Origin: a phage
NCBI GenBank assembly: GCA_022143435.1
Contig: GCA_022143435.1_3941.1
Strand: one strand, 5' to 3'
DNA: 64,000 nucleotides
The notes under the pieces were generated by a model that worked only from the letters and a program-made list of their open reading frames with translations, was not told the origin of the DNA and did no database searches. Shown in pieces: positions 4,319 to 48,203 of this stretch. The position numbers and the translations under genes are program-made. The number at the start of each line of letters is the position of its first letter. Position 1 is the stretch's first letter.

Positions 4319-5062
4319 TTAAACTTTAATGATGGCTCTTAGCTTGTTCTCAAGGTCTGCAAGAGTACCATTATTATGAATAATGTCACGCTCATATTTT
4401 GTAGAAATGCCATTTTCTGAAACATGTGATGAAACTTTGTCCACATTGTCTCTTTTTACTTCAATAGTTTGGTGTGCAAATCTACTCAGCCATTCAGCTT
4501 CAGAGTCAAATCTTAAATCACTGATTAAGACAAAACCATATTGGTTTCTAAGTGAGCACATTTCATGGAATCTAACCATTCTTTTTTCAAGGTCTTTAGA
4601 CCAGAACTTGTCGCCCATTACTTTACGGACAACTTCAGTACCCCAAACCTGTTGAATTTGTCTTGATGAGAATTTATACTTTTTACTAAACCCCAGACGT
4701 GTCAATAGAGTCGGTTTAGCAACCTTCTTAAGCTCCATGATTAATCGTCCGGTTAACTCTGACATAAGCTTGAAGTCCATATGGTAACGTTCATCTCTGA
4801 AGGTGAACTCCATAGCTTCCGTAACTTTAAACATCAGTTCAGAGTATGATAAGTCAAAAACCTGTGGAGTCTCTTTAGTTTCACCGTACAGGTCATTCCA
4901 AGTCAAGTCAAATATCTTTGATGCAGATAGTTTAAGGTTGTCTGCAAAGGCCATTACAGCAACATTGTAGCCATACTCATCCTCTAAGATGTTCTTCACA
5001 ATAGAACATGAGGTGTCTTTTCCAGAACGTGCCTTTCCAGTAAATGCGATAATATTACTCAT
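4319..5062 (-). CDS. deoxynucleoside monophosphate kinase
   Basis: N-terminal P-loop FTGKARSGKDT resembling T4 gene 1 dNMP kinase (GVKRSGKDT). Confidence 0.7.
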   Translation of the reverse strand: MSNIIAFTGKARSGKDTSCSIVKNILEDEYGYNVAVMAFADNLKLSASKIFDLTWNDLYGETKETPQVFDLSYSELMFKVTEAMEFTFRDERYHMDFKLMSELTGRLIMELKKVAKPTLLTRLGFSKKYKFSSRQIQQVWGTEVVRKVMGDKFWSKDLEKRMVRFHEMCSLRNQYGFVLISDLRFDSEAEWLSRFAHQTIEVKRDNVDKVSSHVSENGISTKYERDIIHNNGTLADLENKLRAIIKV

Positions 5063-42342: not shown

Positions 42343-42377
42343 ATTTAAGGACTCTCGTAAGAACCCTTAGAAGTGGC

Positions 42378-43934: not shown

Positions 43935-44190
43935 ATTAAATCTTTTTAGAGAACTTCTAAGAACCTAAGCAACAAGGTTCCACAACAAGCTGTAATAACC
44001 TTAGAAGCCCTCTAAAAAGACCTAAAAAGGTCTTTGCATAGTCTTGTTTAATCCGGTGACTAGAACCTTTGGAGAGCTTGATATTATCTCTTCTCCGTGA
44101 CACCTACTAGGTGCTTTACTGTGCGTGTACGACAATACACTAGGGATACCAAAGCAACATCCGAATGAAGCTTGGCTTTAAATCTTATTA

Positions 44191-44293: not shown

Positions 44294-44376
44294 TGGCATG
44301 GGACGGAGGAGTTGAACCCCTTTGAAACGGTTTTGGAGGCCGTTGCTCATGCCTTAGAGTCTTAACATCGCCCCAT
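44294..44376 (-). tRNA. tRNA-like with Trp-type anticodon loop CTCCAAA (CCA)
   Basis: Anticodon arm matches E. coli tRNA-Trp loop; D region about 7 nt too long for a standard cloverleaf. Confidence 0.35.
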
Positions 44377-44595: not shown

Positions 44596-44798
44596 ATTAA
44601 TCTTTAAAGACTCTCTTAGAAAGCCCTTAAAGATGCCCACCTTATTAATCATACCGTGGGCTAGTACGCCAAATTCTTTGATGAGGGATTGGAAGACCTC
44701 ACTGGTGTTTAGCCTATCAAGCTACTGCCAGAAAAACATTGTCGTTTGCATTTATTTTAAATTTGCAAAATAGACGCTACGCAACGAAAACTAAGGTT

Positions 44799-44827
44799 AC
44801 TATAAAGTAGTCACATCTCAATGTCAA
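44799..44827 (-). promoter_or_regulatory. sigma70-like promoter inside tRNA array (TTGACA-N17-TATAGT)
   Basis: Read on minus strand; would drive the tRNAs at lower coordinates. Confidence 0.5.
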
Positions 44828-44842
44828 CAACTTTATTGAAAT

Positions 44843-45000: not shown

Positions 45001-45076
45001 TGGTAGAAGTGGAGGGATTCGAACCCATCGCCTGTCAGATTAAAAGTCTGCCGCATCACCATTCTGCTACACTTCC
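45001..45076 (-). tRNA. tRNA-Lys (TTT)
   Basis: Anticodon loop CTTTTAA. Confidence 0.55.
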
Positions 45077-45081
45077 ATTAA

Positions 45082-45229
45082 ATTATCTTTGTAGATAAGC
45101 TACCCAGACTTGCTTAAGGTCTGTAGCGATGTGCCTTTTTGGGTTTAAATCTAGAATTTACCCTTTCACCCTTTGTGGTCGCATACTCACAGGTAAGCTT
45201 AATAACTTATCTACAAAGATAATTACCAG
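45082..45229. repeat. 18-bp inverted repeat (ATTATCTTTGTAGATAAG ... CTTATCTACAAAGATAAT) flanking about 110 bp
   Basis: Read directly; inside a tRNA-free gap of the array. Confidence 0.7.
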
Positions 45230-45504
45230 ACCGTTGTTTATCATCTTAAGTGCTACCATTACACCAACTCGACATCTGCCGAGTGAAGGAATCGAACCTT
45301 CGCCTTTTCTTTACCGAGAAATAGATTGTTTAAGTTTTGCTGTAAACGGTCTTCTGTAAATTTGTTGAGCCAGACCAAGTTTTAGATTTTCAAAATTAAA
45401 TTGGCTTGAAATTTCATACGTTCTTGCTGTATTTGGTCTTCTGCTCCTTTAAAGGATACTCGTAAGAACCCTTTAAGGGAGGGGCTAAATAGCCCTCTCA
45501 AAAT

Positions 45505-45583
45505 TGGCGGTTACGAAGGGATTTGAACCCTCATCATCTCCCGTGACAGGGGAGTATTTTAACCAAATTAAACTACATAACCT
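45505..45583 (-). tRNA. tRNA-Asp (GTC)
   Basis: Anticodon stem CTCCC/GGGAG, loop CTGTCAC. Confidence 0.65.
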
Positions 45584-45761: not shown

Positions 45762-45838
45762 TTAATACATTGCCAGACCGTGTTTTTTCTTTTATCCGCA
45801 AAAAGTAGTTTGTTGCTGAATACGGTCTTCTGCAAAAT

Positions 45839-45915: not shown

Positions 45916-46006
45916 ATTCTTAATGACCAGACCAAATCTCTTCTTTGTCCGATTTCGTGTCAGATGAATAAGATTAAACTTGCTGTAATTGGTCTTCTGT
46001 CAAAAC

Positions 46007-46333: not shown

Positions 46334-47749
46334 TTACCAGATATAACGGTCAATCATTACTGCTTTGAGCATTACGCTGATTGGGTCAAACTTCTCACCA
46401 CCAAGCAAAGCTTTTAAAGTGGCTGGAGAGAACCCTGATACCATTGCTACACCGTTATCCTTAACAGACACTTCGCAAGTACCATTACGGTTTGCTAAGT
46501 ACCAGAATACCAGTTGTGGCATCTCATATCCAGCTTTCTTGTACTTGCTCTGAATTGCTTCAAAGTTTGTACGACCGTTAGCTCCATCAACCTGATTGAA
46601 CTCCATATCGGAGAAGATGATAAGCTTACTTGGCATATCTTCCTGAGTCAAGTTGTTTCTCTTACCTATCTCAAGAATGCGGTCAAAAGCTGCTTGTAAG
46701 TTGGTTGAGCCATATTCAACGTGTCGCATCACCTGACGATGACGGTTTCGTAAATCACCACTCAGTTCGATGAAGTGAGGGTTTGTTGAATAAACCATCA
46801 ACTCATCCTTAAAGCAACCTGTATTGCGTTCTGCTACATACAAGGCAAGTGATACACCAATATCAAGAGCAGTAATGGAGCCAAAATTCACCCAAGACAT
46901 TGAGCTTGAAACATCAGTCATACATAAGATGTTTTCACCTTCTGCCATCCAGTTTGGTAGTGCTTTCCACTGCTCATTAGCAACATCTGCATTACCATGC
47001 TTGACAGATTTAATCACATCGTATGGGTAAACAGCACCAGCATTAATCTTAGCCTCACCCTTTGATAAGGACTCGATGTAAGCTTTGTAGCGTTCTCCAT
47101 CTTTACGGTTAAACAGTTTTTGGTAACGTGCAGCAGCAAGTGAAGGAATCTTACTGTAGTCAATCTTACCAAACTCATTAGCAGAGATTTTTTGCTCAAC
47201 TGTATCAGATAGTGCAGACAACAGTGTGCGGTACTCTTTCTCACTCAGGTTGGCAAATTTGCAGAAACGTTTTACAAACTGTTTATGACGTGGTTTGACT
47301 CGTGGTAACCACTTAGCTGCCAAACCTGCTGTTGCAGGGTCTAGTAATGCCGCTTCTAAATGTTTGAAGGCATCTGTCTCGAAACGAGTACCTACGAAGA
47401 TTTTGAAGTCATCAAAACGACCAAGTTCTGCAATCTTATCCATAATGCGAAGAACCTGTGTAGGCTCTAAAACTTTATCTTCAATTGCTTGAAGCAAAAC
47501 AGTTCTGAAGGCTTTACGCTCACCCATACCTTCTCGTACATCTCGCATATGAAGCAAAATACGAACTGCAACATCAACATCCTCACGCAAAGCTTTGTAG
47601 AACAAGTCTGGTAAGATTTCTACATTGCTACGGCTCGAACCAGCAGCTTTGTAAAAGTCCACAAGAGCAGACATTGATGAAGTATGGTTTACAGCACCAT
47701 TTTCAGTTCGACCTGCATGAAGGTGCGCATGTTTGAATAATTCGCTCAT
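46334..47749 (-). CDS. vWA-domain protein with about 270-aa helical N-terminal domain
   Basis: MIDAS-type motif NILCMTDVSSSMSW and later LIIFSDMEF; architecture recalls TROVE+vWA (Ro60-like) proteins (inference). Confidence 0.6.
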   Translation of the reverse strand: MSELFKHAHLHAGRTENGAVNHTSSMSALVDFYKAAGSSRSNVEILPDLFYKALREDVDVAVRILLHMRDVREGMGERKAFRTVLLQAIEDKVLEPTQVLRIMDKIAELGRFDDFKIFVGTRFETDAFKHLEAALLDPATAGLAAKWLPRVKPRHKQFVKRFCKFANLSEKEYRTLLSALSDTVEQKISANEFGKIDYSKIPSLAAARYQKLFNRKDGERYKAYIESLSKGEAKINAGAVYPYDVIKSVKHGNADVANEQWKALPNWMAEGENILCMTDVSSSMSWVNFGSITALDIGVSLALYVAERNTGCFKDELMVYSTNPHFIELSGDLRNRHRQVMRHVEYGSTNLQAAFDRILEIGKRNNLTQEDMPSKLIIFSDMEFNQVDGANGRTNFEAIQSKYKKAGYEMPQLVFWYLANRNGTCEVSVKDNGVAMVSGFSPATLKALLGGEKFDPISVMLKAVMIDRYIW

Positions 47750-47831: not shown

Positions 47832-48203
47832 TTATTTTTTGAGAGTCGCTACAGCAGAGAACGTTGGTTTGTTATCTGTCTGAGACTGACCACCATTATC
47901 AGGGGTCTTCTTAGTGTCTGCTGCAATCGCTTTCATCTCACCTGCTGAGTGAGTCATGATGGTTTTACCAGCCTCCATCATCGACTTCAGGTTTACATCG
48001 TCAGTCGTCAAACCGAACTCTGCAAGCTTAGCAGCATCCCTTGTAACAACCGCCTCAAACAACTTTGCAGCAAACTCAGCAGAATTATCAATGGTCAGTT
48101 GAGCTTTTACAAGTGAGCTTTTGTTACGAGAGCCTTTTGGTCTTCCAGATGGGTTTCCAGACTGGCCTTTTTTAAACTGGCCTTTGTTTGTTCTGTTTTT
48201 CAT
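47832..48203 (-). CDS. hypothetical protein with basic Gly-Pro-rich N-terminus
   Basis: N-terminus KGQFKKGQSGNPSGRPKGSRNK. Confidence 0.45.
   Translation of the reverse strand: MKNRTNKGQFKKGQSGNPSGRPKGSRNKSSLVKAQLTIDNSAEFAAKLFEAVVTRDAAKLAEFGLTTDDVNLKSMMEAGKTIMTHSAGEMKAIAADTKKTPDNGGQSQTDNKPTFSAVATLKK

What the first reader, a model, noticed from the sequence alone, without database searches (positions are those of the whole stretch)
45082..45300. Large inverted repeat and tRNA-fragment-like motifs in a gap of the tRNA array
An 18-bp perfect inverted repeat flanks about 110 bp (45082-45229). Immediately beyond it, on the minus strand, a T-arm-like hairpin (GAAGG-TTCGATT-CCTTC) and acceptor-like stem are followed, not preceded, by a D-arm-like segment (GTCGAGT-TG-GTGTAATGGTAGCAC). 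This looks like a decayed, rearranged or split tRNA-like element.
Basis: seen in the sequence. Interest (0 to 1): 0.35.

Follow-up and report, generated by a model that had tools for sequence, protein, structure and literature searches.

The report
Phage tRNA-mimic Y RNA beside Ro60-like gene
The "scrambled tRNA" and the big inverted repeat are two conserved small structured RNAs inside a Felix O1-like phage tRNA array: one is a tRNA-mimicking Y RNA, probably the partner of the neighbouring Ro60-like protein, and the other is a long-stem RNA of unknown role.

Summary
Both observations are real. The window is a Felixounavirus whose 26-tRNA array lies on the minus strand.

**tRNA-like piece.** The T arm, 7-bp acceptor hairpin and D arm (45301→45250) form the core of a 137-nt RNA, Y4 (45359→45223). 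It is closed by a terminal stem, which is the circularly permuted tRNA-like layout of bacterial YrlA Y RNAs. It is not decayed:
- A model built from it finds relatives in phages whose neighbouring protein is only 33–55% identical.
- 26 of 28 base pairs show compensatory changes.
- tRNA-invariant nucleotides are kept.

**Paralogs and partner.** Three shorter paralogs (Y1–Y3) fill other spacers and share the stem plus a UACAGCAA motif. The gene just upstream of the array (46334–47749, DUF2828) has a predicted Ro60 fold. The stem+CAGCAA motif is strongly enriched next to such genes, on the same strand, in 75 distant phage contigs.

**Family status.** Rfam's YrlA model does not detect Y4, and the YrlA GNCGAA motif is replaced. 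I call it a new variant of a known kind.

**Inverted repeat.** It is the closing helix of a separate conserved 150-nt RNA (45226→45077) with no Rfam match.

Protein binding and function are inferred, not shown.

The parts
46334..47749 (-). Ro60-like protein gene (DUF2828 + DUF7788/vWA, 471 aa), directly upstream of and co-directional with the tRNA/Y RNA array. Proposed protein partner.
   Evidence: Pfam DUF7788 4.7e-44, DUF2828 9.8e-30, VWA_2 weak. AlphaFold model pLDDT 90. Foldseek full-length matches to Ro60: Thermus phage phiLo Ro60 9kop/9l5y E 6e-9 to 4e-8, Xenopus and human Ro60 TMq about 0.6, D. radiodurans Rsr. MIDAS-type D279-x-S281-x-S283 is invariant in 56 homologs. Mycobacteriophage homologs are annotated 'Ro-like RNA binding protein'.
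45223..45359 (-). Y4: a YrlA-like Y RNA with a circularly permuted tRNA-like domain.
   Evidence: The MFE fold recovers terminal stems enclosing V, T, acceptor and D hairpins. Model R1 scores 145 bits here. Covariation is reported.
45356..45359 (-). Y4 P0 helix, 5' strand (UUAC). It pairs with 45223-45226 (GUAA). A 5' AGA / 3' G internal loop follows.
   Evidence: P0 covaries among the paralogs (UGAC/GUCA, UUGC/GCAA, GAGC/GCUC, UUAC/GUAA). 77.6% of cells pair in 42 sequences although P0 was not part of the model.
45345..45352 (-). Y4 P1 helix, 5' strand (AGACCGUU). It pairs with 45228-45235 (AACGGUCU).
   Evidence: All 8 pairs have compensatory changes and 90% of cells pair.
45337..45344 (-). 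Conserved single-stranded motif UACAGCAA just 3' of the P1 5' strand. Proposed recognition element for the Ro60-like protein.
   Evidence: Present in Y1-Y4, in nearly all 42 aligned relatives, and verbatim in mycobacteriophage Rumpelstiltskin. Stem+CAGCAA is enriched beside DUF2828 genes and is seen in the Vibrio, Campylobacter and Listeria phages examined.
45306..45321 (-). V hairpin (UUUCU-CGGUAA-AGAAA), the variable-arm equivalent.
   Evidence: All 4 modelled pairs show compensatory changes and 91% of cells pair.
45285..45301 (-). T arm (GAAGG-UUCGAUU-CCUUC).
   Evidence: T-loop U54, U55, C56, R57 and A58 are kept in 20-21 of 21 full members. 4 of 5 stem pairs covary.
45267..45284 (-). Acceptor-stem hairpin: ACUCGGC, loop AGAU, GUCGAGU (7 bp). 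The 3' strand comes first.
   Evidence: All 7 pairs have compensatory changes and 95.6% of cells pair. Several relatives' loops begin N-CCA.
45250..45266 (-). U8-G9 linker plus D arm (GUGU-AAUGGUA-GCAC).
   Evidence: U8 19/21, A14 19/21, G18 and G19 18/21 each, A21 20/21. 3 of 4 stem pairs covary.
45365..45446 (-). Y3: paralogous Y-like RNA without a tRNA-like domain (GAGC-AGA-AGACCAA-AUACAGCAA ... UUGGUCU-G-GCUC).
   Evidence: Direct repeat D4, fold, coordinates. Model R1 did not list it.
45765..45836 (-). Y2: paralogous Y-like RNA that fills the tRNA-Met/tRNA-Asn spacer.
   Evidence: R1 41.5 bits, E 2.7e-7. Fold and motif.
45919..46003 (-). Y1: paralogous Y-like RNA that fills the tRNA-Glu/tRNA-Met spacer.
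   Evidence: R1 33.4 bits, E 2.6e-5. Fold and motif.
45077..45226 (-). It abuts Y4 at its 5' end and tRNA-Lys(UUU) at its 3' end.
   Evidence: z = -6.26. Model R2 scores 112 bits on the minus strand against 18.5 on the plus strand. Homologs lie just upstream of tRNA-Lys(UUU) in L009 and L007; L010 and L011 also have homologs. No Rfam hit at E <= 10.
45203..45224 (-). Module C long helix, 5' arm. It pairs with 45081-45102.
   Evidence: 22 modelled pairs, 99.4% of cells paired, 14 pairs with compensatory changes over 8 sequences. The G-U pairs fall on the minus-strand transcript.
45105..45123 (-). Module C conserved hairpin CAGAC-CUUAAGCAA-GUCUG.
   Evidence: The loop C(C/U)UWAGCAA is conserved while the stem covaries: CAGAC/GUCUG, CAAACC/GGUUUG, CAGUC/GACUG, AAGUC/GACUU, UGUUC/GAACG.
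45001..45076 (-). tRNA-Lys(UUU). Its 5' end marks the likely RNase P cut that would define the 3' end of module C.
   Evidence: The processing step is inferred.
45505..45582 (-). tRNA-Asp(GUC), the upstream boundary of the 428-nt spacer that holds two hairpins, Y3, Y4 and module C.

Best explanation
The spacer between tRNA-Asp and tRNA-Lys is not junk. It encodes, on the tRNA strand, a tandem set of small structured RNAs that are co-transcribed with the tRNAs.

This is a YrlA-type Y RNA whose T arm, closed acceptor hairpin and D arm, plus a variable-arm hairpin, make a circularly permuted tRNA mimic. The position of the anticodon stem is taken by a terminal stem (P0, an AGA/G internal loop, then P1) followed by a single-stranded UACAGCAA motif.

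That stem-plus-motif module is shared with three shorter paralogs (Y1-Y3). It is the probable docking site of the Ro60-like ring protein encoded immediately upstream of the array. By analogy with Ro60/Y RNA particles, the RNA would gate or tether the Ro-like protein to an effector such as an exoribonuclease or a tRNA-binding enzyme. The tRNA-like end would be the handle that tRNA enzymes recognise.

The RNAs would be released by tRNA processing: RNase P at the downstream tRNA 5' ends and 3' maturation of the upstream tRNAs.

The large inverted repeat is the 22-bp or longer closing helix of a fifth, unrelated conserved RNA (module C). Its long duplex is a plausible RNase III site that would separate it from Y4.

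Shown here: the structures, their conservation and covariation, the Ro60 fold of the neighbouring protein, and the genomic association. Inferred: protein binding, processing sites and biological role.
For: **Architecture.** MFE folds of the window element and of independent relatives all give a terminal stem enclosing V, T, acceptor and D hairpins. This is the V-T-AS-D layout described for YrlA in PMC4201824.

**Covariation.** On 42 sequences, 93.6% of cells pair against 61.8% in shuffles. 26 of 28 pairs have double changes. The score is 0.42 against 0.11 in shuffles (0 of 500 reach it) and 0.03-0.06 when partners are slid. All 7 acceptor pairs covary.

**tRNA identity nucleotides.** U8, A14, G18, G19, A21, T54, Psi55, C56 and A58 are kept.

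**Protein partner.** The DUF2828 gene product is predicted with pLDDT 90 and matches Ro60 structures over its full length.

**Association with the gene.**
- Model R1, built only from Ounavirinae-like phages, gives 26 hits in 75 distant DUF2828 contigs, all on the gene strand. Most of the stronger ones lie within about 500 nt of the gene.
- It scores 59.6 bits at 94 nt downstream of the 'Ro-like RNA binding protein' gene of mycobacteriophage Rumpelstiltskin, where the motif UACAGCAA is identical.
- The stem+CAGCAA pattern occurs 132 times on the gene strand, 38 times on the opposite strand and 25-47 times in shuffles. Within 600 nt of the gene the counts are 62 and 7. 46 of 75 loci have a gene-strand copy that close.
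- It is present by eye upstream of the gene in Listeria phage AG20 (3 copies), Campylobacter phage CPX (2 copies) and Vibrio phage ValKK3.

**Link to YrlA.** Rfam's own YrlA model gives sub-threshold but significant hits exactly on three R1 hits: 39.2, 38.9 and 28.7 bits, with E down to 4e-5.

**Literature.** In the Felixounavirus Bas63, gp130 is described as Ro60-like, lies directly upstream of the tRNA genes and counters the ppl defence. The authors guessed that Y RNAs hide among the tRNAs (10.1101/2024.10.10.617714). Thermus phage Ro60 binds phage-encoded Y-like RNAs and forms complexes with host PNPase (PMC12135203).

**Module C.** Long helix 99.4% paired with 14 compensated pairs; strand-specific score of 112 against 18.5 bits.
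Against: - There are no expression, end-mapping or binding data.
- Rfam YrlA does not detect the window element at all at E <= 10. The YrlA/Yrl 5'-strand motif (GNCGAAN0-1G, or CGAA) is absent and is replaced by ACAGCAA.
- The protein lacks a Pfam TROVE match, and its sequence-profile hit to Ro60 is only E 0.36, at the vWA domain.
- Y4's thermodynamic z-score is weak (-1.83), as is usual for tRNA-like folds.
- The covariation alignment was fitted to the model, which biases pair counts towards the structure.
- Part of the strand bias could come from co-oriented tRNA arrays. At least two R1 hits are tandem-tRNA artefacts (L042 10321-10442 and L096 1294-1428).
- A natural Felixounavirus, ESCO49, lacks tRNA-Asp, Y3 and most of Y4 but keeps the Ro-like gene. 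Y4 is therefore dispensable for growth on a laboratory host.
- The region between P1 and the tRNA-like core has no consistently conserved pairing.
Confidence: 0.75

Rival explanations
1. Decayed or rearranged tRNA pseudogene. This is the first reader's view: remnants of a tRNA scrambled by recombination, with no function.
For: Gene-order scrambling inside a recombinogenic tRNA array is plausible. ARAGORN finds no tRNA. One natural phage has deleted most of the element. Some GenBank records force a 129-nt 'tRNA-Thr-GGT' call here.
Against: The same permuted order recurs in phages whose neighbouring protein is only 33-55% identical. The acceptor, T, D and closing stems differ completely in sequence yet still pair. 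tRNA tertiary-contact nucleotides are conserved. A pseudogene would not keep 7 of 7 covarying acceptor pairs.
Confidence: 0.03
2. A self-standing split or permuted tRNA mimic that works without the Ro-like protein. RNase P would cut the acceptor hairpin and a CCA end would be exposed or added. The resulting two-piece, anticodon-less tRNA-like molecule could be aminoacylated, or could act as a decoy for tRNA-targeting host nucleases or enzymes.
For: The acceptor stem is 7 bp, the length that made M. smegmatis YrlA an RNase P substrate with CCA addition (PMC4201824). In several relatives the acceptor loop begins discriminator+CCA: Mordin GCCA, L011 ACCA, L090 ACCA and CCCA, L012 GCCA. The element sits in a tRNA array, a setting commonly linked to countering tRNA-directed defences (my own knowledge).
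Against: The window's loop is AGAU, with no encoded CCA. SUSP2-type relatives have only a 5-bp acceptor with a 6-nt loop. The conserved stem+ACAGCAA module, shared with paralogs that lack a tRNA domain, and its tight linkage to DUF2828 genes are not explained by this view. It is compatible with the best explanation rather than exclusive of it.
Confidence: 0.1
3. The elements are only cis-acting processing or spacer structures for maturing the polycistronic tRNA transcript (RNase III, E or P entry sites) and have no function in trans. This applies above all to the inverted-repeat RNA.
For: All of them exactly fill inter-tRNA spacers. A duplex of 22 bp or more is a classic RNase III substrate (established knowledge). 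Module C lies just upstream of tRNA-Lys(UUU) in the relatives where this was checked. Other small conserved hairpins recur between tRNAs.
Against: A processing stem does not need about 100 nt of conserved interior with an invariant CUUAAGCAA loop. It also does not need a full tRNA-like domain with tertiary-contact nucleotides. In other phages the same stem+CAGCAA RNAs lie beside the Ro-like gene without flanking tRNAs, for example mycobacteriophage Rumpelstiltskin.
Confidence: 0.1
4. The inverted repeat acts at the DNA level, as a cruciform, recombination site, origin or homing-endonuclease target, rather than as RNA.
For: Arm complementarity is preserved, which a DNA hairpin would also need. 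Module C exists as two exchangeable alleles within Felixounavirus: DR094 carries the Moogle-type allele next to a window-type Y4. That suggests recombination at this spot.
Against: The non-Watson-Crick positions in the long helix are G-U on the tRNA-sense strand, which would be A-C on the other strand. The structural model scores 112 bits on the minus strand against 18.5 on the plus strand. The interior hairpins also covary. No endonuclease ORF is nearby.
Confidence: 0.04

Closest known systems
YrlA (Y RNA-like A; Rfam RF02553), the tRNA-mimicking Y RNAs encoded next to bacterial and phage Ro60 (Rsr) genes (Chen et al. 2014, PMC4201824)
   Same: A terminal stem formed by the 5' and 3' ends encloses, in the same order, a V hairpin, a T arm, a closed acceptor-like hairpin and a D arm. 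tRNA-invariant nucleotides are kept. The RNA is encoded close to, and on the same strand as, a Ro60-fold protein. Several Y RNAs occur per locus, some without the full tRNA domain (compare YrlB). The Rfam model gives significant sub-threshold hits to three members of the family defined here.
   Different: The window element is invisible to the Rfam model, and relatives reach only 29-39 bits against a threshold of 69. The 5'-strand motif is UACAGCAA, not GNCGAAN0-1G. The partner protein is the DUF2828/DUF7788 family, not Pfam TROVE. The RNAs are embedded as spacers in a 26-tRNA array rather than in an rsr/rtcBA-type operon.
Yrl1/Yrl2 of Thermus phage phiLo, bound by phage Ro60 (PMC12135203)
   Same: Phage-encoded Y-like RNAs next to a phage Ro60 homolog. 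That protein's structures (9kop, 9l5y) are among the best structural matches to the window's protein, with 9kop the top hit. It is reported to form ternary complexes with host PNPase.
   Different: The phiLo RNAs were defined by a CGAA bulge and a stem-bulge-stem shape; that paper does not mention a tRNA-like domain in the passages I read.
Permuted tRNA genes (Cyanidioschyzon merolae type) and two-piece (permuted) tmRNA
   Same: The 3' half (T arm plus 3' acceptor strand) is encoded upstream of the 5' half (5' acceptor strand plus D arm). In some relatives CCA is encoded right after the 3' acceptor strand.
   Different: There is no anticodon stem-loop, so no decoding tRNA can be reconstituted. 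There is no tag reading frame or pseudoknots, and Rfam tmRNA and tmRNA_permuted give no hit in 45077-45504.
Stable RNAs 'species 1 and 2' (RNA C and D) in the phage T4 tRNA gene cluster (recalled from memory, not tested)
   Same: Small stable non-tRNA RNAs are encoded among phage tRNA genes and released by tRNA processing. This is the nearest precedent for module C.
   Different: No sequence or structure comparison was made here, and their function is also unknown.

Membership tests
YrlA / bacterial Y RNA (RF02553) | A tRNA-like module with the order V, T arm, acceptor-like stem-loop, D arm, enclosed by a stem formed by the RNA's 5' and 3' ends | tested here: met
   Folds. Covariation of every helix. 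Layout as described in PMC4201824.
YrlA / bacterial Y RNA (RF02553) | Conservation of tRNA-invariant and tertiary-contact nucleotides (U8, A14, G18 G19, T54-Psi55-C56, A58; 15-48 Levitt pair) | tested here: met
   each kept in 18-21 of 21 members. The Levitt 15-48 pair is only partly consistent: G15-C48 in 5 of 6, but A15 pairs with C, U or A.
YrlA / bacterial Y RNA (RF02553) | Score at or above the Rfam gathering threshold (69 bits) with the curated covariance model | tested here: not met
   No YrlA hit in 45077-45504 even at E <= 10. Relatives found with R1 score 39.2, 38.9 and 28.7 bits. There is none at gathering in 11 loci, and none at E <= 0.1 in the mycobacteriophage locus.
YrlA / bacterial Y RNA (RF02553) | GNCGAAN0-1G (CGAA) motif in the 5' strand of the Ro-binding stem | tested here: not met
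   The sequence shows UACAGCAA at that position in Y1-Y4 and relatives. In the Rfam alignment of L090 several stem pairs are flagged as non-standard.
YrlA / bacterial Y RNA (RF02553) | Encoded within a few kb of a Ro60 ortholog, on the same strand | tested here: met
   Y4 starts about 975 nt downstream of the end of the Ro60-fold gene, on the same strand. Across 75 distant loci, 26 of 26 R1 hits are on the gene strand, and stem+CAGCAA counts within 600 nt are 62 against 7. Caveat: the protein is DUF2828-type, not Pfam TROVE.
YrlA / bacterial Y RNA (RF02553) | Physical binding by Ro60, and modification by tRNA enzymes (DusA, TruB) | not testable with these tools
   Needs RIP, EMSA and modification mapping.
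Ro60 / TROVE protein (for ORF 46334-47749) | HEAT-repeat ring plus a C-terminal vWA domain with a MIDAS motif | tested here: met
   The AlphaFold model (pLDDT 90, pTM 0.89) aligns over its full length to Ro60 structures, E 6e-9 to 3e-7, TMq 0.55-0.61. D279-x-S281-x-S283 is invariant.
Ro60 / TROVE protein (for ORF 46334-47749) | Sequence-level membership (Pfam TROVE domain, or a significant profile hit to Ro60) | tested here: not met
   Pfam gives DUF2828, DUF7788 and VWA_2 only. phmmer against PDB finds nothing relevant. A 56-sequence profile hits Ro60 1yvp only at E 0.36, in the vWA region.
Canonical tRNA | Contiguous order of 5' acceptor, D arm, anticodon arm, T arm, 3' acceptor, with a 7-nt anticodon loop | tested here: not met
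   ARAGORN makes no call. Rfam tRNA matches the T arm only, 14.9 bits. No anticodon hairpin exists in the fold. The 129-nt 'tRNA-Thr-GGT' in some GenBank records needs an acceptor stem with mismatches and a roughly 55-nt insert.
Two-piece / permuted tmRNA | An acceptor piece followed by a coding piece with a tag reading frame and pseudoknots | tested here: not met
   No tmRNA or tmRNA_permuted hit in 45077-45504 at E <= 10. By my count from the coordinates, only about 14 nt separate the D arm from the closing stem.

The most novel reading that the evidence does not exclude
Stem+ACAGCAA RNAs, with or without a permuted tRNA domain, form a previously undescribed Y RNA class that spans many phage groups. 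They would be dedicated to the DUF2828-type Ro60 paralog in phages of Enterobacteria, Yersinia, Vibrio, Campylobacter, Listeria and Mycobacterium. Together with that protein they would form an anti-defence particle: in the Felixounavirus Bas63, gp130 is reported to counter the ppl system. The tRNA mimic would serve to recruit or decoy host tRNA-directed enzymes or nucleases. Module C would be a second new RNA class in the same transcription unit. In Vibrio phage ValKK3 the same stem appears to sequester the Ro-like gene's own Shine-Dalgarno sequence and start codon, which hints at autoregulation.
Probability: 0.35. Interest if true: 0.75.

Novelty: new variant of a known kind. Interest (0 to 1): 0.58.

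Why it matters
Ro60/Y RNA particles are conserved from bacteria to humans, yet their roles in bacteria and phages are poorly understood. A recent screen reported that the Ro60-like protein of the Felixounavirus Bas63 counters a host defence (ppl). Its authors could only guess that Y RNAs hide among the annotated tRNAs.

This analysis points to concrete candidates that sit in the unannotated spacers, not among the tRNAs. It gives their structures and a candidate protein-recognition motif (stem + ACAGCAA). The same pairing recurs next to DUF2828 genes in very different phages.

That makes several things directly testable: binding, processing, and the contribution of the RNAs to anti-defence. It also flags a systematic annotation gap. 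The elements are unannotated or mis-called as a 129-nt tRNA-Thr in the records inspected, and Rfam has no model that detects them. Module C adds a conserved RNA with no known relatives.

Tried and rejected
- **Rfam scans.** Scans of the array and of the spacer alone with lax filters found nothing in the spacer beyond the T arm. The weak snoR30 and plastid hits are chance.
- **tRNAscan-type reading.** The GenBank annotation of a 129-nt tRNA-Thr(GGT) at 45277-45405 was rejected. It has a poor acceptor stem and no D arm, and it ignores the perfectly complementary downstream 5' acceptor strand.
- **Missing tRNA-Trp.** I considered whether Y4 could be the array's missing tRNA-Trp. It has no anticodon loop, and a better Trp candidate lies at 44376->44294.
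- **Anticodon-stem equivalent.** A CUUAA/UUAAG pairing (45330-45334 with about 45245-45249) forms in the window but does not hold in SUSP2 or Sf15, so I left it out of the model.
- **Promoter reading.** TTGACA/TTTACA occurs at the 5' ends of Y1 and Y4. No spaced -10 box follows, the scan lists nothing there, and the pairing covaries.
- **Sequence-only link of DUF2828 to Ro60.** Searches were too weak, so a structure prediction was needed.
- **Literature on DUF2828.** One search returned only plant and tardigrade mentions.
- **Supplementary tables of Chen et al. 2014.** They are not held, so I could not check whether DUF2828-type phages were in their list of 22.
- **Bas63 record.** My accession guess was wrong, so orthology of the window's protein with Bas63 gp130 is inferred from the paper's description only.
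- **Model R1 and Y3.** R1 did not list Y3. Y3 rests on the direct repeat, the fold and the motif.
- **Discarded R1 hits.** L042 10321-10442 and L096 1294-1428 overlap tandem tRNAs and were discarded as artefacts.
Full report
**Context.** The window belongs to a Felix O1-like phage. The 601 bases around the finding are 98-99.5% identical to many Felixounavirus genomes. ARAGORN finds 26 tRNA genes, all on the minus strand, between 41259 and 46168. The finding lies in the 428-nt spacer between tRNA-Asp (45505-45582) and tRNA-Lys(UUU) (45001-45076). No convincing ORF occupies it.

**Checking the observation.** Both parts are real.
- The inverted repeat has arms at 45081-45102 and 45203-45224: 22 nt, with one G-U on the minus strand and a 19-bp perfect core. 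It is the longest local inverted repeat in the 64-kb window.
- On the minus strand the order is T arm GAAGG-UUCGAUU-CCUUC (45301->45285), ACUCGGC, AGAU, GUCGAGU, UG, then D arm GUGU-AAUGGUA-GCAC (to 45250).
- The two acceptor-like strands are complementary over 7 pairs, so they form a closed hairpin.

**What the tRNA-like piece is.** Folding the spacer as minus-strand RNA gives three modules. The middle one, which I call Y4 (45359->45223), has these parts:
- a terminal stem made of P0 (UUAC/GUAA), an AGA/G internal loop and P1 (AGACCGUU/AACGGUCU);
- a single-stranded UACAGCAA motif;
- a multiloop carrying a small V hairpin, the T arm, the acceptor hairpin and the D arm.

This is a tRNA whose acceptor end is closed and whose anticodon-stem position is opened and extended. 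It is the layout reported for bacterial YrlA Y RNAs: V, T, AS and D stem-loops between the strands of the Ro-binding stem (PMC4201824).

**The element is not decayed.**
- In SUSP2, the Shigella Sf phages and the Citrobacter phages Mordin and Michonne, the T and D arms are kept. The acceptor hairpin is entirely different in sequence but still pairs: ACACG/CGUGU and ACCCUUC/GAAGGGU.
- I fetched contigs encoding 54-80% identical copies of the neighbouring protein and the Yersinia phage P778 locus. Individual MFE folds of their orphan T arms recover the same permuted cloverleaf.
- A covariance model (R1) built from six Ounavirinae-like sequences with my structure retrieved full-length relatives in those loci.
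- It also retrieved them in 75 metagenomic phage contigs whose DUF2828 protein is only 39-48% identical, and in mycobacteriophage Rumpelstiltskin at 59.6 bits.
- On the 42-sequence model alignment, 93.6% of cells pair against 61.8% in shuffles. 26 of 28 pairs carry compensatory double changes. The covariation score is 0.42, against 0.11 in shuffles (0 of 500) and 0.03-0.06 with slid partners.
- P0 was not in the model, yet it pairs in 77.6% of cells with UA-to-GC exchanges.
- tRNA-invariant nucleotides are retained in 18-21 of 21 full members.
- Caveats: the alignment is fitted to the model, the E-values are rough, and two hits are tandem-tRNA artefacts.

**Paralogs.** The same frame (P0, AGA/G loop, AGACCNN/NNGGUCU, NUWCAGCAA) occurs three more times on the minus strand:
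- Y1 at 46003->45919;
- Y2 at 45836->45765;
- Y3 at 45446->45365.

None of the three has a tRNA-like insert. Y1 and Y2 each essentially fill an inter-tRNA spacer, and Y3 lies directly upstream of Y4.

**The neighbour.** The gene immediately upstream of the array (46334-47749, minus strand) matches Pfam DUF2828, DUF7788 and, weakly, vWA.
- Sequence searches barely touch Ro60.
- An AlphaFold model from 56 homologs (pLDDT 90) matches Ro60 structures over its whole length. The matches are Thermus phage phiLo Ro60, Xenopus and human Ro60, and D. radiodurans Rsr, with E 6e-9 to 3e-7.
- The MIDAS D-x-S-x-S motif is invariant.
- Homologs in mycobacteriophages are annotated 'Ro-like RNA binding protein'.

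**Association of RNA and protein.**
- All 26 R1 hits in the 75 distant loci are on the gene's strand. Many abut the gene, for example 12 nt downstream in L055 and 7-115 nt upstream in L021, L028, L037, L038, L042 and L088.
- A simple pattern (7-bp stem, up to 4 nt, CAGCAA, then the 3' arm within 170 nt) occurs 132 times on the gene strand. It occurs 38 times on the opposite strand and 25-47 times in shuffles.
- Within 600 nt of the gene the counts are 62 and 7. 46 of 75 loci have a gene-strand copy that close.
- The motif is visible directly upstream of the gene in Listeria phage AG20 (three copies), Campylobacter phage CPX (two copies) and Vibrio phage ValKK3.
- It occurs as UACAGCAA in the mycobacteriophage element.

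**Relation to YrlA.** Rfam's YrlA model finds nothing in the window and nothing at gathering score in 11 distant loci. At permissive thresholds it hits three R1 hits exactly: L037 at 39.2 bits, and L090 at 38.9 and 28.7 bits. In the L090 alignment the T arm, acceptor hairpin and D arm line up, while several pairs of the outer stems are flagged as non-standard. So the tRNA-like domain is shared with YrlA. The presumed protein-binding module (ACAGCAA in place of GNCGAA) and the partner protein family are different. I therefore do not file Y4 as a member of RF02553. I treat it as a variant Y RNA class that works like YrlA.

**Literature.** The PhageMaP preprint reports that gp130 of the Felixounavirus Bas63 is Ro60-like, lies directly upstream of the tRNA genes and counters the ppl defence. 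It speculates that some annotated tRNAs might be Y RNAs. I found no paper that identifies such RNAs in Felixounavirus. The candidates here lie in the spacers, not among the tRNAs. Thermus phage Ro60 binds two phage Y-like RNAs and assembles with host PNPase.

**The inverted repeat.** It closes a separate RNA, module C (45226->45077). This RNA abuts Y4 with a 2-nt overlap with P0, and it ends at the tRNA-Lys 5' end.
- It folds with z = -6.26.
- Model R2 finds homologs in L009, L010, L007 and L011. In L009 and L007 the homolog lies just upstream of tRNA-Lys(UUU).
- It scores 112 bits on the minus strand and 18.5 on the plus strand.
- The long helix has 22 modelled pairs, 99.4% of cells paired, and 14 pairs with compensatory changes. 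Its G-U pairs fall on the tRNA-sense strand.
- An interior hairpin keeps the loop C(C/U)UWAGCAA while its stem covaries.
- Two alleles of module C circulate within Felixounavirus.
- There is no Rfam match.

Its function is unknown. The long duplex makes RNase III processing a reasonable inference.

**Mechanism.**
- Shown: the RNA structures, their conservation, the Ro60 fold of the neighbour, and the linkage between them.
- Inferred, step 1: the array is transcribed from promoter-like sites at 46315-46287 or 46224-46195. These are consensus matches only.
- Inferred, step 2: tRNA processing liberates Y1-Y4 and module C.
- Inferred, step 3: the Ro-like ring binds the P0/P1 + ACAGCAA module.
- Inferred, step 4: the tRNA-like end of Y4 engages tRNA-recognising factors or tethers an effector, as in Ro60-Y RNA-PNPase particles.
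- The 7-bp acceptor hairpin, together with the N-CCA loop starts in several relatives, raises the possibility of RNase P cleavage and a CCA end, as reported for M. smegmatis YrlA.
- Against essentiality: phage ESCO49 lacks tRNA-Asp, Y3 and most of Y4.

**Verdict.** Novelty: a new variant of a known kind. Interest is moderate to high, because the result turns a published guess into specific, testable RNAs and a candidate recognition motif found across many phage groups.

Noticed in passing
window 44294-44376 (minus strand): An unannotated, non-canonical tRNA-like gene. It appears to have an 8-bp acceptor stem, a roughly 4-bp T stem and an oversized D region. Its anticodon loop reads CU-CCA-AA, which is Trp, the only amino acid missing from the 26 ARAGORN tRNAs. 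It is conserved in relatives L007-L012, with compensatory changes in the anticodon stem. Rfam gives only a 21-bit tRNA-Sec hit.
   Followed up: partly
window 45445-45481 and 42345-42372 (minus strand): A small hairpin with the conserved loop-proximal sequence GGGUUCUUACGAG occurs twice between tRNAs and recurs in related phages. A GC-rich hairpin (GAGAGGGCU-AUUU-AGCCCCUC, about 45483-45500) directly follows tRNA-Asp. These may be processing signals.
   Followed up: partly
window 45277-45405 as annotated in MZ726792 (L001) and OQ174506: Some GenBank records annotate a 129-nt 'tRNA-Thr-GGT' here. This is a forced tRNAscan-SE call seeded on the Y4 T arm. Most records leave the spacer unannotated or place small hypothetical ORFs on it.
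   Followed up: yes
L099 (Escherichia phage ESCO49) 1201-1394; L098 (Salmonella phage DR094) 1065-1498: ESCO49 carries a natural deletion that removes tRNA-Asp, Y3 and most of Y4 while keeping module C and the Ro-like gene. DR094 combines a window-type Y4 with the Moogle/SUSP2-type allele of module C, so the modules are exchanged independently.
   Followed up: yes
L095 (Vibrio phage ValKK3) about 4960-5006: A stem+UUACAGCAA element (GACAUU ... AAUGUC) lies in the 5' leader of the DUF2828 gene. Its 3' strand overlaps the start codon and the loop holds the Shine-Dalgarno sequence. This hints that the Ro-like protein may autoregulate its own translation.
   Followed up: no
window 47832-48203 (minus strand): A DUF5681 gene (123 aa) sits immediately upstream of the Ro60-like gene. 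The same pair is conserved in L008-L012. Its function is unknown and it may belong to the same module.
   Followed up: no
window 43935-44190 and 44596-44842 (minus strand): Two other spacers of about 250 nt in the array fold significantly better than shuffles (z = -3.1 and -4.0). Each ends in a long hairpin just before the next tRNA. The second holds the best promoter-like site (44827-44799, 11 of 12 matches) and weak Rfam tmRNA and tmRNA_permuted hits (E 5e-3 and 8e-4) that overlap tRNA-Ile and are probably spurious.
   Followed up: no
L032 1190-1657; L039 1353-1676; L037 11696-11922: Distant DUF2828 phage contigs also carry a GOLLD-like RNA (117 bits, below the gathering score of 150, E 3.5e-30), a permuted tmRNA (71.7 bits) and a group I intron (71.5 bits) near their tRNAs and Y-like RNAs.
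   Followed up: no
L096 (Listeria phage AG20) 4959-11455: In this A511-like Listeria phage the DUF2828 gene lies between a tRNA array and genes annotated as RtcB-type tRNA splicing ligase, RNA ligase and a phosphohydrolase. That RNA-repair neighbourhood is absent from the window.
   Followed up: no
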